DNA of 64,000 nucleotides, from contig CAWGYD010000001.1 of the NCBI GenBank assembly GCA_963826785.1, positions 128,001 through 192,000 on the forward strand, written 5' to 3'. Source of the stretch: an uncultured delta proteobacterium. Lineage in GTDB: Bacteria > Desulfobacterota > Desulfobacteria > Desulfobacterales > Desulfosalsimonadaceae. The notes under the pieces are model-generated. The model had not been told where the DNA came from. It saw nothing but the letters and a program-made list of their open reading frames with translations, and did no database searches. The position numbers and the translations under genes were made by a program. Below, one piece after another: positions 1 through 40,002 of this stretch; within the stretch, counting starts at the first letter, position 1; each line of letters begins with the position of its first letter.

Positions 1-640
1 CCAGGGGGGTCTGGGGGGACAGGTCTCCGTACCCGACGGTGGTGAGCGTGACAATGGACCAGTAAATGCTGGTGGGGATATCGGTAAATCCGTGGGTTTC
101 GCCTTCGATGACGTACATGACCGATCCGATGAGGATGGTGATGGTGAATACGGCAAACAGAAACACGCTGATCTTGCGGCGGCTGGCTTTGAGCGCACTG
201 GTGAGGACGTGTGCTTCCCCCAGGTAAGCCGAAAGTTTGAAAACCCTGAAGATGCGCAGGAGGCGGAGAATACGGATGGTGAGCAGGGTCTGGCTGCCGG
301 GGATGGCGATACTGATGTAGGTGGGGATGACGGCCAGCAGGTCGACGATCCCGAAAAAGGAAATTGCATAGGAAAGGGGCCGCGACACGCTGATCAGCCG
401 GAGCGCGTATTCCACGGTGAACAGGAGGGTGAAAAACCATTCAATCCCATAGAGGATGCGGCCGTAGGACCGGTGAATGCCGCCGACGCTGTCGAAGATG
501 ATGGTGGCCACGCTGATGACGATACTGGCAATCAGGATGACGTCAAACGCCTTGCCCGCCGGCGTGTCGGCCTCGAAAATGATTTCGTGCAGTTTGCGCC
601 GCCAGGGTGCGGTTAACCGGGCGGCGGGTCTGTCGCTCAT
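1..640 (-). CDS. Ion transporter / voltage-gated-type potassium channel (3' end runs off window)
   Basis: Manual translation from ATG at 640: MSDRPAARLTAPWRRKLHEIIFEADTPAGKAFD..., S4-like IRILRLLRIFRVFK, and K+ filter YWSIVTLTTVGYGD. Absent from the ORF track because it is truncated. Confidence 0.92.
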   Translation of the reverse strand, partial: MSDRPAARLTAPWRRKLHEIIFEADTPAGKAFDVILIASIVISVATIIFDSVGGIHRSYGRILYGIEWFFTLLFTVEYALRLISVSRPLSYAISFFGIVDLLAVIPTYISIAIPGSQTLLTIRILRLLRIFRVFKLSAYLGEAHVLTSALKASRRKISVFLFAVFTITILIGSVMYVIEGETHGFTDIPTSIYWSIVTLTTVGYGDLSPQTPL

Positions 641-667
641 TGTTTCCGCCTGCGCATCAAAAAGGGA

Positions 668-1006
668 TTAATGGTGATGGACACCCTCCGAGTGCCCGCC
701 GGCAATGATGTAAACCGCTTCATGAGACGAGGGGTTTTCCACGAAAACACTTTGCTCCCCGACAATATGAAAAACTTCTCCTTCGTGCAGGGTGCCCGTG
801 AATTCACCGGTGAGATGAAGGATCCCCTTTGCGGCCATCACCATTTCCTCGTGCCCTTTGCCGGGTTTGACCAGGCGCTGTTTCTCGCCGGGTTTAAGAT
901 ATCCGTAAATCATGTAGCAGGCATGGCTGCCGGTGTCCTGAAGGCCGAAAACGGACTCGCCTTCTTTTTCAGCCAGGGCCCGGCTTTTCAGATCGACTTT
1001 TTTCAT
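668..1006 (-). CDS. Small cupin-like beta-barrel protein with His-rich C-terminus
   Basis: ATG at 1006 with GGAG RBS; cupin-like GHEEMV...LHEGEVFHIVGEQSVFVENP; ends GGHSEGVHHH. Confidence 0.6.
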   Translation of the reverse strand: MKKVDLKSRALAEKEGESVFGLQDTGSHACYMIYGYLKPGEKQRLVKPGKGHEEMVMAAKGILHLTGEFTGTLHEGEVFHIVGEQSVFVENPSSHEAVYIIAGGHSEGVHHH

Positions 1007-1058
1007 GTTCAGCTCTCCTGTGGGCGGTTTGCTTTTGAGTTGGCTGTCTCTTTTACGT

Positions 1059-1981
1059 TCAAGGCGCGATGCATCGGGGATCCGGTGCAGCAAGGTCCCC
1101 GTAAAACTGATAGCTCATGGCCGGGCATCCGCCATGGCAGTGCGCGTGCAGGCTGCAGGTCGTGATCCGGGCACCGGTTTTTCTCAAAGGATTGGAAAAA
1201 CCCGAGGGCCGGGTGCCGCCGGATGTGATCGAAATTATCGGTCAGCAGGTTGCCCAGCCGAAATGCCGGGTACCGGAAGAACAGGTAGCATGGATATACA
1301 TCGCCGTTGGGCAGGACGGATAATTTGGTGGTGCCGGCCGGGCAGCGCCTGGATGCCAGGGAAGGGCAGGTTTGCACATCCGGGATGAACCCGGAGCAGA
1401 ACACGCCGTCAATTCCATTTCTGTTTTTTTTTAACTGCATCATGTGGTGAAAAAAAATGGGAAACGCCACACGGTCCGCAATGTCGGACCTGTCGGCCAG
1501 ATCCCGGTAAATCAGGTACCAGGTGATTCTGTCCATGCCGATGTAGGGGGCCGCCGCAGGCGGTATGGGCGCGTCCGGATAGAAGACGCTTTTCAGGATG
1601 GGCCGCTGATCGAGAATATAATCGTTTAGCGCCCGGCTGATTGGCGTGTCGTTGACGGAGATGCCGATGGTTACAGATGATGCGGGATAGGCGTCGGAAA
1701 GCGCCCTCAGGCGGTCCACCCGGGAGCCGTTTGAACTGACGGTGGTGCGCATGCCGCCGGTGTAAATCGTGTCCACCAGTTTTTCGATGTCCGGGTGCAG
1801 GGTGGGCTCTCCGCCCAGAAGATCGATATGGCCGACACCGGCCGATTTGAGAGAAGATGCCATCCGGGCAAACGCATCGGTTTTTACATCCGGCATACGG
1901 AAAAAGATGCCGGTTGAAGCAGAAATCGCAGGTAAGGTTGCACCGAAGGGTGGGATAGAACTGGATATAGGATAGCGTCAT
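1059..1981 (-). CDS. Radical SAM/SPASM protein (two +1 frameshifts as read, ~1903 and ~1168)
   Basis: MTLSYIQFYPTLRCNLTCDFC (CxxxCxxC) is in one frame; LLGGEPTLHP and CPAG...DVYPC in a second; CSLHAHCHGGCPA...DPRCIAP* in a third, with stop at 1059-1061. Confidence 0.85.
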
Positions 1982-2044
1982 TCGACTGACCTTACGGAAA
2001 AATAAGCGTGAAGACGCATCATGGCCAAGGCTCGATCGCAAATG

Positions 2045-3226
2045 TCAATCAGGCGATTTCAAGTGACTGTTCATCCCATAAACCGCGCACATGACCGGGT
2101 CTACGCCCAGGGGCGACTGGGCTCTGAAACGGCACCCGCCCCGGCATTCGTCTAAAACCGGACAATTGCGGCATTCCAGGCGATCCAGGGGGACATGTTC
2201 CAGGCGGTTCCAGCAGTCGGCCAGTCGGGCCCGGGCATCCCCCAGGGGTTCATCGCGGTAAAAACCGCATTTGACGGCATTGCCGTCGGGAAGGACGGTC
2301 ATCAGGTGGCGGCCGCAGGCATACCCCCCCGATGATCCGTGATAGCCGCCGCCGAAGGCATATGGGAACAGGCCGGCGGCCCGGTCATAGGGGACGGTCA
2401 GGTCCCGGTTAGACTCGAGTGAACCGGTGACCGACAGCACATCGATGCCCCATTCCACAGCCCCCACCTCTTCGATGAATGCCTGCATGGGATCAAATTC
2501 ATCCAGGTTGTCCCGGTGGATCATGGTGGATATGGAAACCGGGATGCCTGCTTTACGGGCGATGCGGATACCGTTTACCGTTCGTTCAAAGGTCCCGGCT
2601 CCCCGCAATGCCTCATGCCCCCGGGTCCATCCGTCCAGGCTGAACTGAATTTCATCGGCGTTTTGCAGCCATTTAGCGTTTTCTGCGGTGACCCGGGTCC
2701 CGTTGGTGAACAGCACCCGGCGGATGCCCAGGTTCCGGGTTTCTTCCAAAAAAAATTGCAGGTCCGGATGGAGCAGGGGTTCGCCGCCGGAGATGAGCAG
2801 CCGCAGCCCGCCCATCTCGGCAAATTGCCCCGTGATGCGCAATGCGTCATCGATGGGCAGCATCGCGGGCCGGGCCGGCCCCAGGTAGCAGTGCCGGCAT
2901 TTGAGATTGCACTGGTGCAGCAGGTGAAGCTCCAGGTACCGAAGCGATGGAATCGGACTCCGTGCGGCCGTTATGTTGATGGGTTCGGGGGCATTCAGCG
3001 CTTCTAAAATCCCTTCGGACAGTGCGTAACGGACGAATTCATCGTCATCCGTGAGTTCTTCCCCCGTGCGCCCGCCGGTGCAGCGCAACAGGAAATCGAG
3101 TGCGGATGAATCGATCTCATAGAGTTCGTCGCGCCCGATATGGTAGATAAAAGGCGTCTCCAGGACTTTGAGGGAGGCATCGGAAGACAGCCGCAGGTAG
3201 GAGCGGCGCCAGTCAGCTGGGATCAT
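2045..3226 (-). CDS. Radical SAM/SPASM protein with N-terminal RRE/PqqD-like extension
   Basis: CNLKCRHC, SGGEPLLH, SPASM cysteines CGRH...KCG...CRNCPVLDECRGGC...DPVMC. The ~90-aa N-terminal extension (FIYHIGRDELYEIDSSALDFLLRCTG) resembles an RRE. Confidence 0.9.
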   Translation of the reverse strand: MIPADWRRSYLRLSSDASLKVLETPFIYHIGRDELYEIDSSALDFLLRCTGGRTGEELTDDDEFVRYALSEGILEALNAPEPINITAARSPIPSLRYLELHLLHQCNLKCRHCYLGPARPAMLPIDDALRITGQFAEMGGLRLLISGGEPLLHPDLQFFLEETRNLGIRRVLFTNGTRVTAENAKWLQNADEIQFSLDGWTRGHEALRGAGTFERTVNGIRIARKAGIPVSISTMIHRDNLDEFDPMQAFIEEVGAVEWGIDVLSVTGSLESNRDLTVPYDRAAGLFPYAFGGGYHGSSGGYACGRHLMTVLPDGNAVKCGFYRDEPLGDARARLADCWNRLEHVPLDRLECRNCPVLDECRGGCRFRAQSPLGVDPVMCAVYGMNSHLKSPD

Positions 3227-3582
3227 TTTGAATCTTCCAGCATCTGCTTGTCCAAGAGGCCGTGTTTAAGGAGCAGATAAACGGCGATGTAGCCCCCGCA
3301 GGGTTCCGGATTTTCCGTTTCCGGGAGTTCGGATTGAAAATCGCAGTCTTTTTCCTTGAAATCGCAAAGGGCGCACACCTGTTCATCCAGCAGACCCCGA
3401 TGCCCTTCCCAGGTGTCGACGGTCTTGGGCAGATGCGCCACCGTCTCTTGCCGGATTTGGTATCTTTCCATGAGAGCCTGGGCCACCAGCGCCCCCCGGC
3501 AGGTCATTTCCTCTTTCTCTCCGGCTTTGAAATAGGTGCAGAAGGGGCGGCAGAGGTAATCGATATAATCTGTTTTGGGCAT
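3223..3582 (-). CDS. Cys-rich hypothetical protein (7 Cys, putative Fe-S/metal binding)
   Basis: LCRPFC, TCRG, VCALCDF, DCDF, PCGGY; 4-bp overlap with the downstream radical SAM gene. Confidence 0.75.
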   Translation of the reverse strand: MPKTDYIDYLCRPFCTYFKAGEKEEMTCRGALVAQALMERYQIRQETVAHLPKTVDTWEGHRGLLDEQVCALCDFKEKDCDFQSELPETENPEPCGGYIAVYLLLKHGLLDKQMLEDSK

Positions 3583-3608
3583 GAAATAACTTTGATTCCG
3601 TCAAAATA

Positions 3609-3642
3609 CGCAGCCCGCATGCGGAATGCATGACGGGCTGCG
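3609..3642 (-). terminator. Stem-loop after peptide gene (terminator/attenuator or mRNA stabiliser)
   Basis: CGCAGCCCG-CATGC / GCATG-A-CGGGCTGCG inverted repeat, followed by TATTTT on the minus strand. Confidence 0.7.
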
Positions 3643-3661
3643 GGGAATTGATTGATTCTGA

Positions 3662-3724
3662 TCAGCAGGAACGTTTACACTTGCAAAGACCGGTGGGTGC
3701 TTTTTTGACTTTTTTAATTTTCAT
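3662..3724 (-). CDS. Putative RiPP precursor peptide MKIKKVKKAPTGLCKCKRSC (20 aa)
   Basis: Strong RBS AAAGGAGAA 6 nt before the ATG; first ORF after a near-consensus promoter; CxCxxxC core; upstream of two SPASM enzymes. Confidence 0.75.
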   Translation of the reverse strand: MKIKKVKKAPTGLCKCKRSC

Positions 3725-3837
3725 GGCAGCTTCTCCTTTCTTCGTGAAAGTGTTGTGGAAAATCGACATGTCTGCTTATTTTGCATTTGGCGGAATTCTC
3801 CCGTCAAACGCTTTTCGTGTTCATCACGAATTAATAC

Positions 3838-3866
3838 ATTTTATCAGCTGAAAATGACTTTGTCAA
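3838..3866 (-). promoter_or_regulatory. Sigma70-type promoter of peptide/radical SAM operon
   Basis: TTGACA (3861-3866), 17-nt spacer, TAAAAT (3838-3843) on the minus strand. Confidence 0.7.
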
Positions 3867-4103
3867 TCATATAGCCGGAATTGTTCGACATCATCGTTTT
3901 GCGCCCTGTGCGTTTAAAAGCGCATGCAGTCTGTAAAAGAGGATAATACGATAATCATCAGCCGCGCGATTGCAAATCGGCTGCTTTCAATTTTTCGAAA
4001 GATATCTGGCCCCGCTGCAGGGAAAAGCGGCAACGGGCCCCCGTTTTGGAGGCTGCGGAGACGATGGAATACGGGGCCAGGCGGCATGCGCGAAAAGCGG
4101 TTT

Positions 4104-4643
4104 CTATAGTCTGATCATGGGCAGCGGCCGGAACGGGTCATGCATTGCCCACGAAAGCGCCAGTTCGGTCAGGCGCCGGTGAAACCCGGCCCGGGGAAAA
4201 GTGCAAAGCAGGTTCTTGAAGTACGAAGGCGGAAACCGGGAAGGAAATTGAAACAGGCAGACATCCAGCCAATCCGCACGGCGGAAGGCCTCCACCAGTT
4301 TGGGTCGGCGTCCCCGGTACGGGGTCAGTTTGTGGTGGTGCAGAATCATGCACCGGATTTCGTCTTTCCAGAACCCCCGGTGGGAGCGATCCAGAAATGC
4401 ACTGGCCCGGTTTACAGAAGGGTTAAGATAGTCGAAGGTCTGATCGGTCCAGATGCCGATATCGTGAAAAGCGGCGGCCACGGCGAGTTTTTCGATTTCG
4501 GTGGCATCTGCGCGGGCATATGCGACGGCGATGTTGAATACCCGGCAGGCGTGATTCTTATAAGCCGTAAAATCATTTTTCAAATCATCGTGCCACTGCT
4601 CAAACAGGTGATCGATGAGGCGATGGCCCTTGATGGTCTTCAT
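4104..4643 (-). CDS. HD-domain-like protein
   Basis: YKNHACRV...AAAFHDIGIW...HHHK...RRADWLD; GGAG RBS before ATG 4643. Confidence 0.7.
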   Translation of the reverse strand: MKTIKGHRLIDHLFEQWHDDLKNDFTAYKNHACRVFNIAVAYARADATEIEKLAVAAAFHDIGIWTDQTFDYLNPSVNRASAFLDRSHRGFWKDEIRCMILHHHKLTPYRGRRPKLVEAFRRADWLDVCLFQFPSRFPPSYFKNLLCTFPRAGFHRRLTELALSWAMHDPFRPLPMIRL

Positions 4644-4727
4644 ATTTGCTCCGTGCAAGCTGATCGGGTCTGCTCTGAATAAAGGATGCCGGGAGGATTT
4701 TTCAAGGCGATCCGCATTCCCAAATCT

Positions 4728-5657
4728 TCAGGGGACCACCCAGACCGCCGCATCAGATATTTTCTGGATCACGTAACTGGCGATCCCGCCGAGATGGGCG
4801 CTTTTTCCGGCGCCCATCTTACCGATGACAACGGTGCCATACGCGCCTTTTTTCATTTCCTGAATGATCGATTTGCCGGTAAACAGGCGCACGGTAACCG
4901 ACTTGAAATGAATCCGCTCCCGGTCGATCCCCGACTTGTTCAGCAGGCTGAGCGCCTGCGTGCTGAAATCTGCGATGCATTTTTCATCCCCGGCCCGTAT
5001 GGCCGCTTCCAGAACGCTTTCATCCCGGTCGAAATCCACTTCGCAGAATTCTTTGAGTGTCGGCCGGGCATGGAAGAAATCGAGATGAATCAAAGGGTTG
5101 TCACGAAAAATAAAAGCGACGTGATCCACCATGCGAAGAGAAGTCGGGGAGCCGTCCACCGCCACCATGACCTTTTGGGATGTGGCCCTGCCGTCCACCA
5201 CCCAGACGGGAATCACCCGGGAGGCGGTCAGCAGATTCGAGGTGACGCTTCCCATGAACATCTCCTGCAGAGAAGACAGGCCCCGCCGGCCGAGGAGGAT
5301 GGCATCGTATGAACCGGCTTCGGCCGCCTTCAGGAGATCGTCCGCAAGGCCGGTCTGCCGGGGAACGGTTTTGATCTCGATGCGTTTCGCATCGATTCCG
5401 CCCTTGATCATGGACTCCCTTGCGGTCTTCATCATTTGAAGGGCTGCGGCCTGGTTCCGGTCACAGACCTTCTGGAGTTCCGCCTGGGCTTTTGCCTGCT
5501 TTCTGGCTTCCTCCAGCAGGTACAAAGAAATCATCGGCTGGACGTGGTAGAGCATGAATTCGATTTCATGGATCACCCTTGCCATTTCAATGGCATATTG
5601 AACGGCATGCCTGGCGTGGGTGGATGAATCCAGCGCGATCATGATCTTTTTCAACAT
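4728..5657 (-). CDS. Universal stress protein, tandem Usp domains
   Basis: KKIMIALDSS...LGRRGLS...MGSVTSNL, then a second KVMVAVDGS...LGGIASYVIQK...VWVVP. Confidence 0.9.
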   Translation of the reverse strand: MLKKIMIALDSSTHARHAVQYAIEMARVIHEIEFMLYHVQPMISLYLLEEARKQAKAQAELQKVCDRNQAAALQMMKTARESMIKGGIDAKRIEIKTVPRQTGLADDLLKAAEAGSYDAILLGRRGLSSLQEMFMGSVTSNLLTASRVIPVWVVDGRATSQKVMVAVDGSPTSLRMVDHVAFIFRDNPLIHLDFFHARPTLKEFCEVDFDRDESVLEAAIRAGDEKCIADFSTQALSLLNKSGIDRERIHFKSVTVRLFTGKSIIQEMKKGAYGTVVIGKMGAGKSAHLGGIASYVIQKISDAAVWVVP

Positions 5658-8303: not shown

Positions 8304-8484
8304 TTTTAAAATGCCATGGAAGAGAGTAGATTGCCGTGTGCGCAAAACTATAGGACGGAGAAGATGATTTTACAAGAAAACAATGAGGTGGGCCCATCTC
8401 CTCTGACCCCGGTTTTGACATCTCCACCCGCGGAGGCCATATTTTACATGTATTTTAACTCCTTGGTTAAAGAGGGCAAAACCG

Positions 8485-9291
8485 GTGGCGCAGATAAGCA
8501 GATCCAACCCGTTGAACATACTGCGGCTGATCGGAATGATTGCCGTCGATGGGCTCCGCCGCCTGGGGAGGTCTGCCCTTTTCTTCTGTCATGCATTCAT
8601 CTGCATGTTTCTTCCGAAACAGCCGTTCCGGATACTCGAGCAGGTCTATCACATCGGGGCCGCATCCACGGGAATCGTTGTGGTGGTGGGCCTGTTCACC
8701 GGCATGGTGTTCGGGCTCCAGCTCCATTACACCCTGATCAAATTCGGCGCGGAAAGCGGGATCGGGGCAGCCATCTCGCTTTCCATCATCCGGGAGCTGG
8801 GGCCTGTTTTGACCGCGATCATGATCACCGCCCGGGCGGGTTCCGCCATGGCGGCCGAAATCGGCATCCAGCGCATCTCGGAACAGATCGACGCCCTGTT
8901 CACCATGGAGATCGACCCGGTGAGATACCTGGTCAGCCCGCGGATGGCGGCATCCCTGATCAGCTTTCCCATCCTGACCACCTTTTTCGACCTGGTGGGC
9001 ATCATGGGGGGGTGGATCACGTCTGTGCTTCTCCTGGGGGGCAACCAGGGGGCCTATTTTTATCGCGCCCGTTCAGTGGTGGAACTCATCGATATAAAGG
9101 GCGGATTCATCAAGGCAATCGTTTTTGCCCTCATCGTATCGAGCATCTGCTGCTACCAGGGATATTTTACGCACCTGCACAGGGAAAGTCATGGTTCCAG
9201 AAGCGTGAGCGTCTCGACCACCTGGGCGGTGGTGCTGTCATGCGTCATGATCCTCGTGTCGGATTACGTGGTCACATCGTTTCTCATGTAG
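8485..9291 (+). CDS. mlaE: MlaE-family ABC permease
   Basis: IRELGPVLTAIMITARAGSAMAAEIG...EQIDAL...DPVRYLVSPR. Confidence 0.93.
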   Translation: MAQISRSNPLNILRLIGMIAVDGLRRLGRSALFFCHAFICMFLPKQPFRILEQVYHIGAASTGIVVVVGLFTGMVFGLQLHYTLIKFGAESGIGAAISLSIIRELGPVLTAIMITARAGSAMAAEIGIQRISEQIDALFTMEIDPVRYLVSPRMAASLISFPILTTFFDLVGIMGGWITSVLLLGGNQGAYFYRARSVVELIDIKGGFIKAIVFALIVSSICCYQGYFTHLHRESHGSRSVSVSTTWAVVLSCVMILVSDYVVTSFLM

Positions 9292-9305
9292 GAGGCAAGG
9301 CCGGC

Positions 9306-10550
9306 GTGGAAACCCCGCTCATCGAATTCCGCAACGTCACGAAACGCTTCGACGGGGTCGTCGTCCTCGATGGCGTGGATGCATCGATGTATGAGAACCA
9401 GATCACCACGATCATCGGTAAAAGCGGAACCGGAAAAAGCGTGCTGCTCAAGCACTGTGTCGGACTGATGCACCCGGATGAGGGGGACATCCTGATGGAA
9501 GGGATACCGGTGAGGGTGATGAAAAAGACCGGCAAATGGCATCAGTATAAACGATGCATCAGCTATATGTTCCAGGACAACGCCCTTTTCGATTCCATGA
9601 CCATATTCGAAAACGTGGCCCTGCCATTGCGGCAGACCACGCGGCTCAAATCAAGCCGGATCAGGGAAAAGGTCATGGCGCGCATCGAGCAGACCGAACT
9701 CGGCCCCGCGGTCAACAAGTATCCCGCCGAGCTTTCAGCCGGAATGCAAAAAAGGGTGGCCCTGGCGCGGGCGCTGGTGACGGATCCGAAAGTGGTGCTG
9801 TTCGACGAACCCACCACCGGACAGGACCTGGTGCGCCGGAACAGCATCCTGAGCATGATCGCCGATTCCAAAAAACGGTTCGGGTTCACCGCCATCCTGA
9901 TCAGCCATGACATCCCGGACATTTTTTTCATCTCAGACCGGATCCTGATGCTCTGGGAGAAAAAGATCATTTTCCAGGGGACTTATGAGGAGGCCATCCG
10001 GCTTGAACATCCGATGATCATCGAACTGCTGCAAAGTCTTTCGGAATTGGAGAACGAAGTGACCCGGAGCCGCTACAGGCAGATGTTCAAATCCCGATAT
10101 GCCACGATATTCGGCCCCCGGCCGGCGGACCCAACCGGCGTGGCGGTCGCATACGGCATCGATTATGATGTTCCGGGCGGTTTTCGACAGGCGGCGACAA
10201 TGGCAGGAATAAAGTCGATCGAGGCGTTTATGGGCAACTACATGAAAGAAGTCGGCGGTATGACGGTGAGGCAGGATACGGGGCGGATGGTCACCTTGAT
10301 TCCCCATATCGATATTGAGGAAGCACGGAAAATCGTCGCGGAATTCGGAAATGTTCTGGAAGCGCAAACCCTGCCCGGGGCGGCGCACCATTTCAAGGCG
10401 GAAACGGGTGCTGCGGTGCCCGACATCATGATTTCCGCCGGCATTTCGGACATAACGCCTGGCGCTGAACTGGAGCAGATTTTGAAAAAAGCCGGGGCGG
10501 TCCGGCAGCCGATCGCCCATTATGACGCCGGCGGGGGAGATATATCATGA
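9306..10550 (+). CDS. mlaF: MlaF-family ABC ATPase with C-terminal GGDEF-like extension
   Basis: GTG at 9306 after GGAGG; Walker A GKSGTGKS, FQDNALFDS, LSAGMQKRVALAR, LFDEPTTG, SHD; ~165 extra C-terminal residues. Confidence 0.88.
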   Translation: METPLIEFRNVTKRFDGVVVLDGVDASMYENQITTIIGKSGTGKSVLLKHCVGLMHPDEGDILMEGIPVRVMKKTGKWHQYKRCISYMFQDNALFDSMTIFENVALPLRQTTRLKSSRIREKVMARIEQTELGPAVNKYPAELSAGMQKRVALARALVTDPKVVLFDEPTTGQDLVRRNSILSMIADSKKRFGFTAILISHDIPDIFFISDRILMLWEKKIIFQGTYEEAIRLEHPMIIELLQSLSELENEVTRSRYRQMFKSRYATIFGPRPADPTGVAVAYGIDYDVPGGFRQAATMAGIKSIEAFMGNYMKEVGGMTVRQDTGRMVTLIPHIDIEEARKIVAEFGNVLEAQTLPGAAHHFKAETGAAVPDIMISAGISDITPGAELEQILKKAGAVRQPIAHYDAGGGDIS

Positions 10551-24013: not shown

Positions 24014-24745
24014 TTACACATTTAATGTCAACAGCAGCGCCACGACCAGCGCGTAAATACCGGTGGATTCGGAAACGGCCTGGCCCACCAGCATGCTCCG
24101 GGTCATCAGGCCGAGGGTCCGTGGATTCCGGGCCACGGCCAGAACCGCGTTTTCCGCGGCAAATCCTTCGCCGACGCCGGGTCCGATGCCGCCGAATCCC
24201 ATGCAGAGTCCGGCCCCCAGCATGCTGCAGGCCGGTATCAATGCCATTTCCGGCGGCACCGATTTGTACAGCAGCAAAAGGGAGATCAGAAAACCGTAAA
24301 TGGCGGTAGACTGGGCAACTCCGGCGCCAATCAGCATCAGTGTATTGAGTTGGCTGGCCACCTTGGGCTGCCGCCCGATGCCTGTGCAGGCACCGCCGGC
24401 GGGAAGTCCGGCACCGACACCGCATCCGATGGCGGAAAGTCCCATGGAAAAACCCGCCCCCAGATAGGCCCATGCCGTCAGGAGCGGTTTGCCTTCCATC
24501 GGTGAAAACAGCAGCAGCATGGCAATCACCAGGCCGAAAATACCGGCGGTTTCCGCCACGGCCTGTCCCACCAGCATGGTCCGGAGCACTTCACCCACCA
24601 GGTTGGGGCGAAAAGACAAGGTTTCATTTGCTTTGCCGGCGGTATACCCTTCGCCGATGGCGGCCCCGATGGCGGCGAATCCGACCGAAATTCCCGCCCC
24701 TACAAAGGAAGCGGCCTTGATCCATTCGATGGTTTCAAAAGTCAT
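24014..24745 (-). CDS. atpE: ATP synthase subunit c, triplicated (three hairpins)
   Basis: Three c repeats ending [20 protein letters not shown] and [10 protein letters not shown]. Confidence 0.92.
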
Positions 24746-30202: not shown

Positions 30203-32146
30203 ATGAATACATACGAGGTTTACTTTATTCCCCATGATAAAAAAATCCGGGTGGATGAAGGGCAATTCCTGATCCGTGCGGCCATGGATGCGGGCGTTCA
30301 CGTGAATGCCTCCTGCGGCGGGGAGGGGGTATGCGGCAAGTGCCGGGTGCTGATCGAAAAGGGCGAAGTCGAAGGCGGCGTCTCTGAAAAACTCAGCCGC
30401 AGGGATATCGAGGAAGGATACCGGCTGGCCTGCCGGTCGAAGGTCAAAAGCGATCTGGTGGTCCGGATACCCGTGGAATCCAGCATTGATGCCGGTGTGC
30501 TGAACCGGATGTCCACCCCCCGACGGATGGCCCGCATCAAGGAAGTCAACCTGGATGACTTAAAGGAACAAGGGCTCTTCATACCGCCGGTGGAGAAAAA
30601 GTATTTGGAACTGCCGGAACCGACCCACCAGGACAATGCCGCCGACGTGACCCGGATCGTCCAGTCCCTGAGAACCCAGCATGGCGAGCACCGGCTGGAG
30701 TTGGACCTGTCGGTGATCCGGAAAATACCGGATGTGCTGCGCCAGTCCGATTTTAAAGTCACCGTCAATATCGCCCGGCCGGTGCGCAACGAAGGCAAAA
30801 ACCGGATCATCAATATCCAGAAGGGAGACGCCACCGGCCGCAATTTCGCCATTGCCGTGGACATCGGCACCACCACGATTTATGCGCAAATCATCGATCT
30901 GATTTCCGGAAATGTCATGTCCCAGTACGGGGATTTCAATTCCCAGATCAGCTATGGAGAAGACGTCATCAGCCGCATCGTGTTTGCGGAAAAACCCGGC
31001 GGCCTGGACAAGCTCAATGAAAAGGTGCTGGAAACCATCAATTCGGTGATCGAAAAAACCATCGCCAAGTCATCGGTGGATCCGGACGAGATTTCCACCA
31101 TCACTCTTGCGGGCAACACCACCATGACCCAGCTGTTTTTGAAGATCAATCCCCGATATATCCGGCGCGCCCCCTATGTGCCGGCGGCTGCTTTCTATCC
31201 GCCGGTCAAGGCATCGGATATCGGACTGAAGCTGCCGGAGCACGTCACCGCCCTGGTCTTTCCCCAGGTGTCGAGCTACGTGGGCGGCGATATCGTGGCC
31301 GGGGTCATGGGCTCGGGAATGGCCCATGACGAGCGGCTCACGCTTTACATGGATATCGGCACCAATGCCGAAATCGTCATCGGAAATCGTGACTGGCTGG
31401 TGTGCGCCGCCTGTTCGGCGGGCCCGGCCTTCGAGGGCGGCGGGATCAAACTGGGAATGAGGGCCGCCAAGGGCGCCATAGAGGACTTTTCCATCGATCC
31501 CGTTACCTTGGAGCCCATGAATATCACCATTGGCAACACGCGCCCCAAGGGGATCTGCGGCACCGGGCTGATCACCATGGTGGCCAGCATGTTCGAGATG
31601 GGGCTCATCGACAACCGGGGCAAATTCAACCGGGACCTGAAAACCCCCCGGCTGCGCGAGGTCGACGGGGTCTATGAGTTCGTGCTGGCCTGGAATGACG
31701 TGACCGGCATCGATCGGGATGTGGTCCTCACTGAAATCGATATGGATAACCTGATCCGCGCGAAGGGGGCCATGTACAGCGGATGCATGACTCTGCTCAA
31801 AGAAGTGGGCCTTGGCATCAAGGACCTCGACCGGATCATCATGGCCGGCGGGTTCGGCTCCTATGTGGATCTGGAAAAATGCATGGCCATCGGGCTGCTC
31901 CCGGAAATCGACCCGGAAAAGGTGACCTTTATCGGAAACGGTTCCCTTCTGGGCGCCCGCATGAGTTCGCTCACCAACCGGATCAGGCGGGATGTGGGCG
32001 ACACCCTGTCCCGGATGACCAATTTCGAATTGTCTGAAACAACCTCCTATATGGACAATTACATCGCCGCACTTTTCCTTCCGCACACCGACCTGGAATT
32101 GTTCCCGAAATTAAAAACCCGCCTGGAGGCGCGGAAAAAAATGTAA
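30203..32146 (+). CDS. acsV: Reductive activator of corrinoid protein (RACo/AcsV; 2Fe-2S + ASKHA domain)
   Basis: CGGEGVCGKC...RLAC ferredoxin; VDIGTTT; VGGDIVAG; DIGTNAE; AGPAFEG; upstream of the acs operon. Confidence 0.9.
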   Translation: MNTYEVYFIPHDKKIRVDEGQFLIRAAMDAGVHVNASCGGEGVCGKCRVLIEKGEVEGGVSEKLSRRDIEEGYRLACRSKVKSDLVVRIPVESSIDAGVLNRMSTPRRMARIKEVNLDDLKEQGLFIPPVEKKYLELPEPTHQDNAADVTRIVQSLRTQHGEHRLELDLSVIRKIPDVLRQSDFKVTVNIARPVRNEGKNRIINIQKGDATGRNFAIAVDIGTTTIYAQIIDLISGNVMSQYGDFNSQISYGEDVISRIVFAEKPGGLDKLNEKVLETINSVIEKTIAKSSVDPDEISTITLAGNTTMTQLFLKINPRYIRRAPYVPAAAFYPPVKASDIGLKLPEHVTALVFPQVSSYVGGDIVAGVMGSGMAHDERLTLYMDIGTNAEIVIGNRDWLVCAACSAGPAFEGGGIKLGMRAAKGAIEDFSIDPVTLEPMNITIGNTRPKGICGTGLITMVASMFEMGLIDNRGKFNRDLKTPRLREVDGVYEFVLAWNDVTGIDRDVVLTEIDMDNLIRAKGAMYSGCMTLLKEVGLGIKDLDRIIMAGGFGSYVDLEKCMAIGLLPEIDPEKVTFIGNGSLLGARMSSLTNRIRRDVGDTLSRMTNFELSETTSYMDNYIAALFLPHTDLELFPKLKTRLEARKKM

Positions 32147-32150
32147 TCCC

Positions 32151-32198
32151 GATGGGGGGATGGCCGGGACGGATATTCCGCCCGCCCATCCCCCCATC
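32151..32198 (+). terminator. Stem-loop after acsV
   Basis: GATGGGGGGATGG ... CCATCCCCCCATC inverted repeat. Confidence 0.65.
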
Positions 32199-32250
32199 GT
32201 GACGCTCCCCGCTTTTTTGACCCTGAGCAACAAAAAAAAATCACATATTA

Positions 32251-32280
32251 TTGACAAACATTATTTTTTCATATTAAATA
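32251..32280 (+). promoter_or_regulatory. Possible sigma70 promoter of acs operon
   Basis: TTGACA at 32251 in an AT-rich tract; -10 box ambiguous (TTAAAT or TAAATA). Confidence 0.4.
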
Positions 32281-32511
32281 ACTATCTTTTGTGGCAGCGT
32301 ATCTAATTTGTTCAAATATTAATAAATATTAATCAGTTCAATAGAAGCGGACCGTCCGTTTTCTGCGGGATGCGGGCCCCGTCCGCCATATATACCCGGC
32401 CTCCGGGACAAAGGAGCCGGACGAAGAAATGAGAAGGGCCGGATGGACCAGGAAGATCCATTCACAAGGTTTTAAGTACATTTAACCCTTTGTTAATAGG
32501 AGGAGGCAACT

Positions 32512-34071
32512 TTGGGCTTCGAAATCGTTAAAGAAAATTATGCAGGCAGCATAAAACCGATTGTGCTGGGCAAGGGCAAGAAGGCGGTGACAGTCGGCGG
32601 GGAAAAATGCTATCCGTTCTATCTGTTTGAAGGCGACATGCCCAATAAACCCAAAATCGCCATGGAAATCTGGGACATGGAGCCGACGGACTGGCCGGAG
32701 ACCGCAAAAGCGCATTTTGCAGATGTGCTCTCCGACCCGGCGGCCTGGGCCAAGAAATGCGTGGAAGAGTTCGGTGCCGACATGATCGTTCTGCAGCTCA
32801 AGAGCACCGATCCCAACGACAAGAACGCGAGCCCCGAGGACGCGGCCAAAACCGTGGGGAAGGTATTGAAATCCATCAGCGTGCCGCTGATCGTCTGGGG
32901 AACGGCCAACAGCGTAAAGGACGAAGCGGTCTTAAAGAAGATTTCCGAGTCTTTTGACGGCGAAAATCTGGTCCTGGGACCGGTGGAAGAAAAGAACCAC
33001 AAGGGGATCGGCGCCAGCGCCATGGGATACGGCCACACCCTGATCTCTTCTTCCCCCATCGACGTCAACCTGGCCAAGCAGGTCAACATTCTGCTGGAAA
33101 ACCTGGGCATGCCCATGGACCGGATGATCATCGATCCCACCACCGGCGGTCTGGGGTATGGGATGGAGTACTCCTACTCGGTTATGGAACGGCTGAAGAT
33201 GGCGGCCATGGCCCAGGGGGATGACAAGCTCCAACTGCCCATCATCAACAACCTGGCCAATGAAGTGTGGCGTTCCAAGGAAGCCAAGGAAACCGTGGAA
33301 GACGCTCCGGAATTGGGTGATCCGGAAAAACGCGCCGCCATGATGGAAGCCGTGGGTGCGATCAGCTACCTGATGGCGGGATCCGATATCCTGATCATGC
33401 GGCATCCCGAGGCGATCCGCCTGGTCCGGTCCTTCATCGATCTGATTTCCGACGGCGGCAGCGCCCAGGATGTCAAACCGATGGTCAAAAAGCTGGCGGA
33501 CGTCAATATCGATTTTGCCAAGATGGCACCGGCTCCCGATCTGAAGATCGAAGAAGAAAAAGCAAAGCCGGCTCCGGTGAAGAAGGAAGCGCCCAAGAAG
33601 GAAGCGCCCGCCGCAGCCAAACCGGCGGCAGCCGCCGCCCCCGCAGCCGCACCCGCGGCCGAAAAGAAGGAAGCGCCCAAAGCCGAAGCCAAACCGGCTG
33701 TAGATGATGCCGCCGCCAGGGCCAAAGCCGAAGAAGAGGCCAAAGCCGCTGCCGCCGCCGATGCCAAGGCTAAAGTGGAAGCCGACGCCAAGGCCAAGGC
33801 CGCCGCCGAGGCAAAGGCAAAAGCGGATGCCGAAGCCAAAGTCAAGGCGGAAGAAGAGGCCAAAAAGAAGGCCGAAGCCGACGCCAAGGCCAAGATTGAG
33901 GCCGAGGAGCAGGCGCTGAGAGATCAGCGGGCCAAAGAGCGTGAAGAACTGAAGGCCAGACGCGGCGAAAAGAAAGAAGCCGCCGTTTCCATGACCGCAG
34001 CCGCGGATCAGAAATCCGAGTTGGACAAGATCATCGACCGGCTGGATCTAATTCACAAGAGAGTCGCATAA
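32512..34071 (+). CDS. acsD: Corrinoid Fe-S protein small (delta) subunit with long Ala/Lys/Glu-rich C-terminal tail
   Basis: TTG start after GGAGGAGG; SSPIDVNLAKQ, IDPTTGGLGYGMEYSYSVMER, MRHP. Confidence 0.92.
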   Translation: MGFEIVKENYAGSIKPIVLGKGKKAVTVGGEKCYPFYLFEGDMPNKPKIAMEIWDMEPTDWPETAKAHFADVLSDPAAWAKKCVEEFGADMIVLQLKSTDPNDKNASPEDAAKTVGKVLKSISVPLIVWGTANSVKDEAVLKKISESFDGENLVLGPVEEKNHKGIGASAMGYGHTLISSSPIDVNLAKQVNILLENLGMPMDRMIIDPTTGGLGYGMEYSYSVMERLKMAAMAQGDDKLQLPIINNLANEVWRSKEAKETVEDAPELGDPEKRAAMMEAVGAISYLMAGSDILIMRHPEAIRLVRSFIDLISDGGSAQDVKPMVKKLADVNIDFAKMAPAPDLKIEEEKAKPAPVKKEAPKKEAPAAAKPAAAAAPAAAPAAEKKEAPKAEAKPAVDDAAARAKAEEEAKAAAAADAKAKVEADAKAKAAAEAKAKADAEAKVKAEEEAKKKAEADAKAKIEAEEQALRDQRAKEREELKARRGEKKEAAVSMTAAADQKSELDKIIDRLDLIHKRVA

Positions 34072-34150
34072 CAGACAATAATCATAAATTAGGGGAAGGG
34101 CGGTGCAAACAGCCTTTTCCCGATTCACAAAATATGAGGAGGAACCTCGA

Positions 34151-36175
34151 ATGGCAGAAGAAAAAGAAAAACCGACCAAGGCCGCCAAAGTGGCGGATCC
34201 GGTTGCCGCAACCATAGATGTCGCCTCACAGCAGCTGATCCGGCGTGCCCAGCAGCTGGGCATCGACACGGTATTCGACCGTGCCGAATCCATGAAGCCC
34301 TGCAACATCGGCACCCAGGGAACCTGCTGCAAGAACTGCGCAATGGGCCCCTGCCGGCTGCCCCTGCCCAAGAGCGGCATCGAAGGCGGAGACGACCGCA
34401 AGGGACTTTGCGGCGCAACCGCCAATACCATTGCGGCCAGAAACTTCATCCGCATGATCGCCGGCGGCGCCGCCGCCCACTCCGACCACGGCCGATGCGT
34501 GGCCGAAGTTTTCATGTCGGTTGCACGGAAGGAAACCCAGGACTACAAGATCAAAGATCCGGTCAAACTGGTTGCAGTGGCTGAAGCCATGGGGGTTGCC
34601 ACAAAAGTCGACGTGGATGGCGAATCCAAAGACCGGGATATGGATGAAATCGCTCTGGAGCTTGCAGAAGTGGCCCTGGCCGAATGGGGCAAGCCCGATG
34701 GCGAACTGGTCGGCCTGAAACGAGCGCCTGCGCCGCTGTATGAAAAATGGAAGAAGGCCGGCGTGCTTCCGAGAAACATCGACCGTGAAATCGTTGAAAT
34801 CATGCACCGGACCCACATGGGCGTGGATCAGGATTACAAGAACCTGATGAAGCAGGGGACCCGGGCGGCGCTGGCCGACGGCTGGGGCGGTTCCATGATC
34901 GCCACCGACCTTCAGGACATCGTGTTCGGCACGCCCTATCCGCTGCAGTCGGAAGCCAACCTGGGCATCATGAAGGAAGACCATGTCAACATCATCGTGC
35001 ACGGCCATGAACCGGTCCTGTCCGAGATGATCGTGGCGGCATGCCAGTCCAAGGAAATGCTCGATTATGCAAAGGAAAAAGGCGCCAAGGGGATCCAGCT
35101 GGGCGGCATCTGCTGCACGGCCAATGAAATTCTGCAGCGTCACGGCATTCCGCCGGCAGGAACCTTCCTGCAGCAGGAACTGGCCATCATCACCGGCGCC
35201 TGCGACGCCATGGTGGTCGACATCCAGTGCGTGTTCCAGAACCTGGCCAACGTGGCCAAGTGTTTCCATACCAAGCTGATCACCACCCATCCCATTGCCC
35301 GGATGGAGCAGGACAATGTGCTGCACATCGAATTTGATGAGCACCACGCCATGGATGATGCCAAGCGCATCGTCAAGATGGCCATCGACAATTTCAAGAA
35401 CCGCGGATCGGAGATCATGATCCCGAAGCAGAAGGCGACCCAGATCGCCGGTTTCGGCGTGGAATCCATCCAGTACCACCTGGGCGGAACCTTCCGCGGC
35501 AACTACTACACCTTGAATGACAACATCATCAACGGCCGCATCCGCGGCATCGCCGGCGTGGTGGGCTGCAACAACGCCCGTACCCGCCACAACGAAGGTC
35601 ATATCGCCATCGTCAAGGAGCTGATCAAGAATGACGTCATCGTCCTGACCACGGGATGCAACGGCATCGCCTGCGCCATGGAAGGGCTGCTGACCCCCGA
35701 GTCCGCCGCCGTCTATTGCGGTCCGGGACTGGCCGAAGTCTGTGAAACCGTCGGTATCCCGCCGGTCCTGCACATGGGCTCCTGCGTGGACAACAGCCGC
35801 ATCCTGCTGGCGGCCACCGAGGTGGTCAAGGCCGGCGGACTGGGCAATGACATCAGCGATCTGCCCGCAGCCGGAAGCGCCCCCGAGTGGATGAGTGAAA
35901 AGGCCATCTCCATCGGCCAGTACTTTGTGGCCTCCGGTGTCTACACCGTGTTCGGCACCACGTTCCCCACCACCGGCGCACCGGTATTCCAGGACCATCT
36001 GTTCAAGGATATGGAAAAGATCTACGGCGGCAAATGGGACTTCGAAGCCGATCCCATCCTGCATGCCCGCAAGATGATCGCCCATATCGACGCCAAGAGA
36101 AAAGCCCTGGGCATCGACAAGGCCAGAGAGCGCGTCCTGATGGATATGGCCGATCGCCAGGCACTGGATGCTTAA
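34151..36175 (+). CDS. cooS: Anaerobic Ni-CO dehydrogenase catalytic subunit (CooS/AcsA)
   Basis: CCKNCAMGPC, GLCGA, HGHEP, GICCTANE, VGCNN, TGCN, HMGSCVDNSR, PEWMSEKA. Confidence 0.96.
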   Translation: MAEEKEKPTKAAKVADPVAATIDVASQQLIRRAQQLGIDTVFDRAESMKPCNIGTQGTCCKNCAMGPCRLPLPKSGIEGGDDRKGLCGATANTIAARNFIRMIAGGAAAHSDHGRCVAEVFMSVARKETQDYKIKDPVKLVAVAEAMGVATKVDVDGESKDRDMDEIALELAEVALAEWGKPDGELVGLKRAPAPLYEKWKKAGVLPRNIDREIVEIMHRTHMGVDQDYKNLMKQGTRAALADGWGGSMIATDLQDIVFGTPYPLQSEANLGIMKEDHVNIIVHGHEPVLSEMIVAACQSKEMLDYAKEKGAKGIQLGGICCTANEILQRHGIPPAGTFLQQELAIITGACDAMVVDIQCVFQNLANVAKCFHTKLITTHPIARMEQDNVLHIEFDEHHAMDDAKRIVKMAIDNFKNRGSEIMIPKQKATQIAGFGVESIQYHLGGTFRGNYYTLNDNIINGRIRGIAGVVGCNNARTRHNEGHIAIVKELIKNDVIVLTTGCNGIACAMEGLLTPESAAVYCGPGLAEVCETVGIPPVLHMGSCVDNSRILLAATEVVKAGGLGNDISDLPAAGSAPEWMSEKAISIGQYFVASGVYTVFGTTFPTTGAPVFQDHLFKDMEKIYGGKWDFEADPILHARKMIAHIDAKRKALGIDKARERVLMDMADRQALDA

Positions 36176-36236
36176 TGCTGCGGATGATCATTGATAAATA
36201 TATTACCGTTATAAATCCTCAACGAAGGAGGAACGC

Positions 36237-38471: not shown

Positions 38472-38489
38472 TCGAATCGGTATTGATTT

Positions 38490-38513
38490 GCGGGACGGCT
38501 CAGGCCGTCCCGC
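38490..38513 (+). other. Intergenic hairpin between acsB and acsC
   Basis: GCGGGACGGC-TCAG-GCCGTCCCGC perfect stem with no adjacent U-tract. Confidence 0.55.
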
Positions 38514-38574
38514 TCATCCATATGATTTTACATTTTTGGTATGGATTTTTTGACGAATTGATAAGGAGACGAAA

Positions 38575-39916: not shown

Positions 39917-40002
39917 ACCAACTAACTGCTGGATGAGGCGGGTTTTTGCGATTGGTTCAATCTCATGATCGGCGTCAATCCAGGTGATGGAGGAAAAAGC
40001 CC

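What the first reader, a model, noticed from the sequence alone, without database searches (positions are those of the whole stretch)
668..3866. Candidate new RiPP system: 20-aa CxCxxxC peptide, 7-Cys protein, two radical SAM/SPASM enzymes and a cupin-like protein
Seen on the minus strand, in order: promoter TTGACA-17-TAAAAT; RBS AAAGGAG; MKIKKVKKAPTGLCKCKRSC* (3662-3724, below the ORF-track cutoff); a strong hairpin; a 119-aa Cys-rich gene overlapping an rSAM/SPASM gene with an RRE-like N-terminus; a second rSAM/SPASM; a cupin-like protein with a His tail. Known: rSAM/SPASM enzymes with PqqD/RRE domains modify short peptides (sactipeptides, ranthipeptides, PQQ, mycofactocin). The peptide does not match the SCIFF, mycofactocin or PqqA precursors as I recall them. 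No peptidase or exporter is in the cluster. Inference: an intracellular thioether-crosslinked or cofactor/metal-binding product.
Basis: partly seen in the sequence, partly recalled or inferred. Interest (0 to 1): 0.86.

Follow-up and report, generated by a model that had tools for sequence, protein, structure and literature searches.

The report
Tiny peptide with radical-SAM maturase
A 20-amino-acid gene too short for gene callers, an enzyme built to modify it and a small cysteine-rich partner travel together through oxygen-avoiding bacteria and archaea, often with a small RNA hairpin in front of the gene, which points to an undescribed peptide-modification system of unknown product.

Summary
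Real; the scan found this system before on other DNA (four notes). The 20-codon ORF is a gene: a near-invariant peptide (M-x-I-[KR]-K-x8-C-K-C-x-x-S-C) occurs in 44 of 45 genomes carrying the first radical SAM/SPASM enzyme in a 401-genome sample, in 40 of 40 GTDB family genomes across several phyla and archaea, and in 0 of 40 loci of other radical SAM enzymes. The enzyme has an RRE fold and a 7-Cys SPASM domain and reaches no curated family cut-off. Corrections: the second radical SAM gene is broken here by two frameshifts and is a rare accessory (3 of 381 genomes); the cupin's His tail is not conserved; the hairpin after the peptide looks like a terminator, not a SECIS. Added here: the 7-Cys protein is a tandem duplication of a 3-Cys unit with no fold match, and the peptide's 5' leader carries a covarying hairpin with an A(U/C/A)GAA loop, often overlapping the ribosome-binding site (27 of 67 leaders against 27 of 2,500 controls; 16 of 78 in new data). 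Most likely the enzyme crosslinks the C-terminal cysteines and the product stays in the cell. Chemistry and function are inferred, not shown.

The parts
3838..3866 (-). Sigma-70-type promoter (TTGACA-17-TAAAAT) of the peptide gene
   Evidence: 11 of 12 consensus matches; CTTGACA is the commonest 7-mer upstream of homologous peptide genes, in 20 of 67
3814..3830 (-). Leader hairpin 1: 6-bp stem, AUGAA loop, right after the predicted transcription start
   Evidence: Pair probabilities 0.73-0.99; same loop with different stems at -87 to -100 in L003, L039, L126, L229
3736..3750 (-). Leader hairpin 2: 5-bp stem, ACGAA loop, 3' arm overlaps the ribosome-binding site
   Evidence: Pair probabilities 0.3-0.48; with hairpin 1 it forms the only tandem pair of such hairpins in the 4.43-Mb genome
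3733..3739 (-). Ribosome-binding site AAAGGAG
   Evidence: Sequence; 77 of 78 new metagenome copies have an SD-like word at -18 to -3
3662..3724 (-). 20-aa precursor peptide MKIKKVKKAPTGLCKCKRSC; Lys-rich leader, C-terminal CKCxxSC core
   Evidence: Profile score 61 against 5 for the next of 170 candidates in the genome; pN/pS 0.17 in the core, 0.32 in the leader; co-occurrence
3603..3642 (-). Terminator-like hairpin with T-rich tail after the peptide; probably keeps peptide mRNA in excess over enzyme mRNA (inference)
   Evidence: z -4.3; z below -2 after 49 of 67 homologous peptide genes, most with T runs. The simple terminator scan did not list it
3223..3582 (-). 119-aa Cys protein: two tandem copies of a helical unit with 3 (first) and 4 (second) Cys; likely binds a metal or Fe-S cluster (inference)
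   Evidence: 7 invariant Cys in 44 homologs; HHalign half against half 96%, single-unit homologs against halves 98%; fused to the enzyme in 10 of 60 hits; no family or fold match
2045..3226 (-). Radical SAM/SPASM maturase with N-terminal RRE (393 aa); core enzyme
   Evidence: CX3CX2C at 106/110/113, seven conserved SPASM Cys; AF2 pLDDT 93; top structural matches SkfB Z 27.7 (rmsd 4.7, 327 aligned) and SuiB Z 25.0; below all NCBIfam cut-offs shown
1059..1981 (-). Second radical SAM/SPASM gene without RRE; frameshifted twice here (probable pseudogene); rare accessory
   Evidence: Three-frame match to intact L040; 3 of 381 genomes, each time next to the core enzyme; 0 of 54 other orthologs in this assembly frameshifted
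668..1006 (-). Small cupin (112 aa), accessory; conserved THACY, GHEE, AGGH
   Evidence: Atlas neighbours at 0.96-0.97 carry cupin Pfam families; 25 of 26 genomes with a hit at E<=1e-20 also have the core enzyme

Best explanation
A minimal intracellular RiPP system of anaerobes. Shown (by sequence): the 20-aa peptide is a conserved gene with its own promoter, ribosome-binding site and terminator, tied to one discrete family of RRE-radical SAM/SPASM enzymes and to a small Cys domain. Inferred: the Lys-rich N-terminus docks as a beta-strand on the acidic RRE; the fixed 13-residue spacing places CKCxxSC in the active site; a peptide Cys binds the open iron of auxiliary cluster I while the deoxyadenosyl radical removes an H from a nearby residue, giving one or two small sulfur-to-alpha-carbon thioether rings (for example C14 to residue 17 and C16 to S19). 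The product stays in the cell, perhaps uncleaved, and serves metal, Fe-S or redox handling. The Cys domain is a metal/cluster-binding partner; cupin and second enzyme are optional tailoring steps. In many lineages the leader hairpin controls translation of the peptide. Odds: peptide is the enzyme's substrate about 0.85; alpha-thioether chemistry about 0.45.
For: Co-occurrence 44 of 45, 40 of 40 genomes and 0 of 40 control loci. RRE fold; RRE residues 10-80 net negative in 62 of 66 sequences, mean -7.4, peptide carries 8 Lys/Arg. Seven conserved SPASM Cys; the candidate eighth, C338, is in only 35 of 66, which would leave one open site as in CteB (PMC6231123, passages). Catalytic-site-proximity residues as defined in PMC10288494 (sections 7 and 9), mapped by motif: Y114, S146, L/F173, S196, G321, F/L322; close to the sactisynthases StsB (Y,T,I,S,K,L) and SkfB (Y,T,F,S at the first four), unlike the ranthisynthase CteB (F,F,T,S,H,Q). 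Residue 17 varies (K,G,A,N,H,R,S), as an alpha-carbon acceptor may. Best structural match is SkfB.
Against: No modification is demonstrated. Position 5 is Gly where StsB needs Lys (K338A inactive); the first four positions are common among SPASM enzymes and the paper's full residue table could not be read. Sequence identity to SkfB is only 17-18%. Lys15 is invariant in 44 of 44 distinct peptides, though the seed pattern required it, which alpha chemistry does not explain. The metal/redox role rests on scattered neighbours (rubrerythrin, superoxide dismutase, ferredoxin in Nitrospirota; ArsP permease, heavy-metal ATPase, DUF364 in single lineages) that differ between lineages.
Confidence: 0.45

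Rival explanations
1. Same substrate, SbtM-like chemistry: the enzyme oxidises Cys at the beta-carbon and closes thiooxazole rings, giving an oxygen-independent metal-binding peptide for anaerobes.
For: SbtM is a SPASM enzyme of Geobacter-type anaerobes that does this on a Gly-Cys motif (PMC9204691, passages); an open auxiliary site fits it equally; three invariant Cys and no exporter; metal-related neighbours in some lineages.
Against: Only the core matches TIGR04082 (70.7 bits against cut-off 350); no GG(C/U)G motif; residues before the Cys are L/T, K and S; no TGA at any Cys in 67 genes, stops are TAA 26, TGA 22, TAG 19.
Confidence: 0.2
2. Same substrate, but the radical forms on the side chain of the invariant Lys15 (or Ser19) and a Cys closes a non-alpha thioether: a ranthipeptide-like or new Cys-Lys link.
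For: K15 and S19 are as fixed as the Cys; SuiB, which activates a Lys side chain, is the second structural match.
Against: Proximity residues differ from CteB at five of six positions; my patterns required K15, so variants lacking it would be missed; no Trp or acidic acceptor.
Confidence: 0.15
3. The peptide is not covalently modified but acts as a three-Cys ligand or carrier for a metal or Fe-S cluster, or as a regulatory subunit of the enzyme, which acts on another substrate.
For: CxCxxxC could ligate a cluster; no peptidase; peptide genes can sit far from the enzyme (9 genomes) and have their own promoter, terminator and leader hairpin; the partner protein has 3-Cys units.
Against: An RRE-bearing SPASM enzyme beside a short conserved peptide is the standard maturase layout; fixed leader length suits RRE-to-active-site positioning; no other conserved substrate gene nearby.
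Confidence: 0.15
4. The enzyme is a non-peptide SPASM protein (Ahb/NirJ type) and the ORF is incidental.
For: Best NCBIfam scores are to AhbD, ScmE, NirJ2 (84-91 bits); CGFY resembles the NirJ-type motif (recalled).
Against: Scores are a fifth of the cut-offs and cover only the core; the ORF is under purifying selection and tracks the enzyme almost one to one.
Confidence: 0.02

Closest known systems
Sactisynthases SkfB (PDB 6EFN) and StsB (NF045574)
   Same: RRE + radical SAM + auxiliary cluster; RRE placed as in SkfB/SuiB (model range 15-373 aligned); similar proximity residues at positions 1-4 and 6
   Different: 17-18% identity; 86 bits against cut-off 625 for StsB; full SPASM rather than Twitch; precursor only 20 aa with all Cys in the last 7; no peptidase or exporter; Gly at position 5
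SCIFF ranthipeptides with CteB/Tte1186 (TIGR03974)
   Same: Widespread anaerobe system of a conserved Cys peptide and a 7-Cys SPASM maturase, function unknown
   Different: Three Cys in 20 residues; TIGR03974 not among the best 25 families; proximity residues differ; extra Cys-domain partner; different phyla
SbtM/SbtA thio(seleno)oxazole system (TIGR04082/TIGR04081)
   Same: SPASM enzyme plus short Cys peptide in deltaproteobacterial anaerobes
   Different: Below cut-off; no GG(C/U)G motif and no selenocysteine codon
Mycofactocin, PQQ, SynChlorMet and GeoRSP cassettes
   Same: Intracellular peptide systems without exporter, some with a second SPASM protein or a cupin (composition recalled; GeoRSP cupin from scan notes)
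   Different: All below cut-off; RRE fused rather than a free PqqD; no conserved client enzyme found
ANTAR-target hairpins (and CsrA sites, recalled)
   Same: Short tandem hairpins with a fixed loop in a 5' leader, one overlapping a regulatory element
   Different: ANTAR sites are hexaloops with A1 and G4 (PMC8934654, passages); these are pentaloops A-H-G-A-A; CsrA sites need GGA (recalled)

Membership tests
RRE-dependent radical SAM/SPASM RiPP maturase | CX3CX2C radical SAM core | tested here: met
   C106, C110, C113 in 66 of 66 sequences; PF04055 at 86.7 bits
RRE-dependent radical SAM/SPASM RiPP maturase | SPASM domain with auxiliary-cluster Cys | tested here: met
   C304, C320, C352, C355, C361, C365, C380 in 63-66 of 66; Pfam SPASM model itself gave no hit
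RRE-dependent radical SAM/SPASM RiPP maturase | RRE fold (three strands, three helices) | tested here: met
   AF2 secondary structure, pLDDT 93-98 over residues 11-80; alignment to SkfB and SuiB includes it. No Pfam PqqD hit in 22 members; the domain was not folded and searched alone
RRE-dependent radical SAM/SPASM RiPP maturase | Conserved co-occurring precursor peptide | tested here: met
   44 of 45; 40 of 40; 0 of 40 controls
RRE-dependent radical SAM/SPASM RiPP maturase | SAM-dependent modification of the peptide | not testable with these tools
   Needs biochemistry
Sactipeptides | S-to-alpha-carbon thioether | not testable with these tools
   Needs MS/NMR
Sactipeptides | Sactisynthase-like catalytic-site-proximity residues | tested here: inconclusive
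   Five of six alike StsB, position 5 differs; reference table in an unreadable PDF
SCIFF/CteB ranthipeptides | Six Cys in about 45 residues; TIGR03974 above 425 bits | tested here: not met
   Three Cys in 20 residues; no family scored above 91 bits
SbtM/SbtA | TIGR04082 above 350 bits | tested here: not met
   70.7 bits; no match over cut-off in the genome
SbtM/SbtA | GG(C/U)G motif with Sec codon and SECIS | tested here: not met
   Motif absent; Cys codons are TGC/TGT in 67 of 67; all three stop codons used. TIGR04081 search found nothing but its control was silent too
Ahb/NirJ heme enzymes | TIGR04545/04055/04051/04546 above cut-off | tested here: not met
   80-91 bits against 500-650
GeoRSP, SynChlorMet, mycofactocin, PQQ maturases | Equivalog score above cut-off | tested here: not met
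   66-85 bits against 265-400 for the first enzyme; at most 89 bits for three intact second-enzyme orthologs
ANTAR-target RNA | Hexaloop with A1 and G4 | tested here: not met
   Enriched loops are 5 nt (AUGAA 18, ACGAA 7, AAGAA 6 of 67); no hexaloop above 4. The genome does encode one ANTAR protein
Known RNA families (Rfam) | Covariance-model match | tested here: inconclusive
   No match at E<=1 in 500-4300; 15-17-nt hairpins may be too short to score

The most novel reading that the evidence does not exclude
Anaerobic bacteria and archaea make the smallest known uncleaved RiPP, a metal- or Fe-S-binding peptide built without oxygen by a new Cys-centred radical reaction, and its translation is switched by a dedicated AHGAA-loop hairpin read by the duplicated Cys3-unit protein, which would be a new metal-sensing RNA-binding fold. 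Hairpins occur only with the two-unit form (30 of 44 against 0 of 21), and orphan copies of the domain sit beside an RNA pseudouridine synthase gene, but the one-unit/two-unit split changes only twice on the tree, so the link is not statistically supported.
Probability: 0.12. Interest if true: 0.88.

Novelty: new variant of a known kind. Interest (0 to 1): 0.68.

Why it matters
About one in nine sampled genomes of this phylum (45 of 401), plus Nitrospirota, Actinomycetota, Chloroflexota, Rokubacteria and archaea, carry an almost invariant peptide that annotation misses. A 20-mer is cheap to synthesise and the enzyme is a single 393-aa protein, so its chemistry can be read out in one experiment; radical SAM maturases of new families have repeatedly given new crosslinks. 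The conservation, the lack of export genes and a dedicated RNA control element suggest a housekeeping role in anaerobic physiology rather than an antibiotic. The partner domain has no known family or fold.

Tried and rejected
Selenopeptide read-through of the TGA into the hairpin: rejected, homologs end in all three stops. A second copy of the hairpin inside codons 3-6 of the peptide: 17 of 67 observed against 17.9 expected from synonymous shuffles, so it follows from the amino acids. A DNA operator upstream: no spaced palindrome convincingly above shuffles (best 7 of 67 against shuffle maxima 3-5). Link of hairpin to the two-unit Cys protein: one or two independent contrasts only, sign test p 1. 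Fold of the Cys protein: no Foldseek match at E<=0.001; best VIA Z 4.5 to the XpsE N-domain, rmsd 2.5 over 55 residues, within background; this does not show a new fold. Complex prediction of enzyme with Cys protein: no verdict. The 20-aa peptide was not folded with the enzyme, so leader binding is untested. Sequencing runs: none was listed, so expression and the two frameshifts could not be checked in reads. Source names for family proteins could not be looked up. Viral contigs: 0 matches to the peptide pattern. BLASTP of the two halves of the Cys protein found nothing; only profiles did. Literature: ten searches of the held library listed no paper on this system; the spreadsheet of PMC10288494 (14,550 enzymes, 3,422 precursors) holds none of six search terms including CKCKSSC, GLCKCK, TCKCK, though its enzyme sheet lists only accession numbers, so family members may be in it unnamed; its PDF supplement was unreadable. 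The Haft and Basu 2011 paper is not held; other subscription atlases of radical SAM RiPPs (recalled) were not seen.
Full report
1. Observation. The minus strand carries, in order, a promoter-like site at 3866-3838 (11 of 12), AAAGGAG at 3739-3733, a 20-codon ORF at 3724-3662, a hairpin at 3642-3609 (z -4.3), a 119-aa Cys protein, a 393-aa radical SAM protein overlapping it by 4 nt, a second radical SAM gene and a 112-aa protein. The second radical SAM gene is not intact: against the 328-aa ortholog in L040 it matches in three successive frames, with one extra base near 1899-1905 and one near 1158-1160. In the same assembly 0 of 54 proteins of a relative at 50% identity or more showed a frame change (22,060 aa). 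A looser repeat (82 ORFs, some of them shadow frames; 16 had a stop in the alignment) showed a colinear frame change only for this gene. A true pseudogene is therefore likelier than an assembly error, but no reads were listed to check.

2. The peptide is a gene. Of 30 loci fetched through the Cys protein, 26 hold the first enzyme and all 26 hold the peptide; the other 4 hold neither. A peptide profile found it in 30 of the 40 family loci and 0 of the 40 others; one more locus has a 19-residue version (L060); the remaining 9 genomes carry it elsewhere. Two of these 40 repeat genomes of the first set. In 401 genomes of the window's phylum, 45 have the enzyme at E<=1e-60 and 51 match a DNA pattern for the peptide; 44 have both. 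The miss (G223) has the enzyme at a contig end. The 7 pattern hits without the enzyme lack the leader; six did not fit the peptide expression and the seventh scored -28. Kin are not independent, so these counts carry no p-value. A metagenome scan with a pattern that did not include the start codon listed 80 of 121 hits; of 78 new distinct ones, 77 have ATG or GTG exactly at position 1 and 77 an SD-like word. Synonymous change outruns amino-acid change (pN/pS 0.17 core, 0.32 leader). Consensus: M-[KTS]-I-[KR]-K-[VI]-x-[KR]-x4-[LT]-C-K-C-x-x-S-C-stop. My patterns required CKC, so variants there would be missed. Hosts named: Desulfobacterota, Nitrospirota, Actinomycetota, Dehalococcoidia, Rokubacteria, Archaeoglobus, Geoglobus, Methanobacteriota. 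The closest enzyme matches with the same gene order are Desulfobacterales (L039, L040).

3. The enzyme. It forms a discrete family: 62 representatives at 50% clustering score 250 bits or more, then scores fall to about 200; none of 34 representatives scanned, mostly from the next tier, reaches an NCBIfam cut-off among the families shown. The window protein and three homologs score at most 91 bits against cut-offs of 180-725. The AF2 model (pLDDT 93) has three strands and three helices at residues 17-70, the RRE layout described in PMC6231123 (passages). Foldseek ranks SkfB, SuiB and CteB first; VIA aligns residues 15-373 to SkfB (Z 27.7) and 11-387 to SuiB (Z 25.0), that is including the RRE. 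The RRE is acidic in 62 of 66 sequences. Seven SPASM Cys are conserved and C338 is not (35 of 66), which suggests an open site on auxiliary cluster I (inference from CteB).

4. Partners. The Cys protein has 7 invariant Cys and is a tandem duplication (HHalign 96-98%); single-unit forms of about 57 aa occur in archaea, Actinomycetota and two deltaproteobacterial families. It is fused to the enzyme in 10 of 60 profile hits. It was found in 43 of the 45 enzyme genomes (31, 12 more; the two misses are at contig ends) and in 29 of 40 GTDB loci, with two dispersed cases checked and found. Seven genomes have a hit without the enzyme; one is a decayed fusion (L029), one lies between a methyltransferase and a pseudouridine synthase (L018). 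No Pfam, NCBIfam, Atlas or fold assignment. The cupin at E<=1e-20 is in 26 of 401 genomes, 25 of them with the enzyme; 8 weaker hits are in genomes without it. The second enzyme is in 3 of 381 genomes, always next to the first, with more distant versions near it in three or four Nitrospirota loci. Among 83 neighbours scanned, chosen from 135 candidates plus 4 others, no peptidase or exporter recurs (one M24 peptidase, two ArsP permeases); rubrerythrin, superoxide dismutase, ferredoxin and oxoacid oxidoreductase genes recur within Nitrospirota only.

5. RNA signals. A terminator-like hairpin follows 49 of 67 peptide genes. In the 120 nt before the start, a hairpin with loop A-N-G-A-A and a stem of 4 or more pairs occurs in 27 of 67 leaders, against 27 of 2,500 leaders of the window's genome and at most 3 in 200 shuffles. 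Chosen by loop sequence alone, 37 of 75 instances pair against 28 of 1,179 controls; stem positions 1-5 pair beyond partner shuffles with five or six pair types each, and sliding the register drops pairing from 0.70 to 0.37-0.49. The motif was noticed in this set, so new data matter: 16 of 78 new metagenome leaders carry it (shuffles mean 1.0, maximum 4), mostly at -38/-37 and -19/-18, and 6 of 22 further genomic copies, all six in one family. It is thus lineage-restricted. The copy at about -19 uses the SD as its 3' arm, which could bias it, but upstream copies have unrelated stems. The window's two hairpins are the only tandem pair in 4.43 Mb. Not an ANTAR hexaloop, no Rfam match. What binds it is unknown.

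6. Mechanism. Shown: gene, co-occurrence, domain anatomy, RNA hairpins. Inferred: leader docking on the RRE; Cys-centred radical chemistry; retention in the cell. Among chemistries I put alpha-thioethers first (0.45) because five of six proximity residues resemble StsB and four of four resemble SkfB, while CteB differs at five. Against: Gly replaces a Lys that StsB needs, and these positions are not very specific. Thiooxazole formation as in SbtM (0.2; PMC9204691 and PMC11002830, passages), a link to Lys15 (0.15) and an unmodified cluster-carrier peptide (0.15) remain open.

7. Known or new. It works like RRE-dependent SPASM maturases and fails membership of SCIFF, SbtM, Ahb/NirJ, GeoRSP, SynChlorMet, mycofactocin and PQQ by score and precursor. 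Ten library searches and one supplement search found no description; subscription papers and the PDF supplement of PMC10288494 were not seen and may list the family. Papers seen: PMC9204691, PMC8934654, PMC6231123, PMC10114670, PMC11002830 (passages); PMC10288494 (abstract, sections 7 and 9, spreadsheet searched, first of 61 parts read); others only as search listings. Four earlier notes of this scan describe the same system on other DNA; they are not independent support. A word search for the leader hairpin in the scan's notes returned nothing.

8. Verdict. Real, conserved, undescribed as far as I could search; a new variant of a known kind. Interest 0.68: easy to test and likely to give new chemistry or physiology, but the reaction and role are inferred, and this particular copy has lost its second enzyme.

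Noticed in passing
window 30203-40890 (+): Wood-Ljungdahl cluster: corrinoid activator (RACo), CODH, acetyl-CoA synthase, CdhD-family subunits, pterin-binding methyltransferase; marks the host as a strict anaerobe.
   Followed up: no
window 24017-24745 (-): ATP synthase c subunit with three matched c-domains (243 aa), next to subunit a; a triplicated c ring subunit.
   Followed up: no
window 8316-10547 (+): 744-aa ORF whose first half overlaps the MlaE-like ORF 8485-9291 in another frame; the real ABC ATPase probably starts near 9290 and has a C-terminal extension.
   Followed up: no
window 4104-4658 and 4728-5657 (-): HD-domain protein and tandem Usp protein upstream of the promoter; not seen as recurring neighbours of the system.
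   Followed up: partly
L018 1219-1866; also L021, L027: Orphan two-unit Cys domain between a methyltransferase and a pseudouridine synthase gene, in genomes without the enzyme or peptide.
   Followed up: partly
L029 1330-1713: Decayed cassette: Cys domain fused to the first residues of the enzyme, then interrupted.
   Followed up: partly
L067 3367-4791 (-): Cys domain in one frame with a receiver-PAS-histidine-kinase fragment; real fusion or assembly join not checked.
   Followed up: no
L167 1615-1840; L119, L124, L120, L125, L129, L130, L168: Genomes with two peptide copies, the second often with His at position 17 (CKCHSSC); second copies sit beside HypE-like, FeoB/MerR-like, nitroreductase-like or cupin genes (labels recalled from sequence).
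   Followed up: no
L009, L013/L051: Frameshifts in the first enzyme in two few-contig assemblies of one genus; probably long-read errors.
   Followed up: no
G000 C1 near 821607 (-): A 7-bp AUGAA hairpin 27 nt before a 730-aa secreted-looking protein; could be chance at the 1% background.
   Followed up: no
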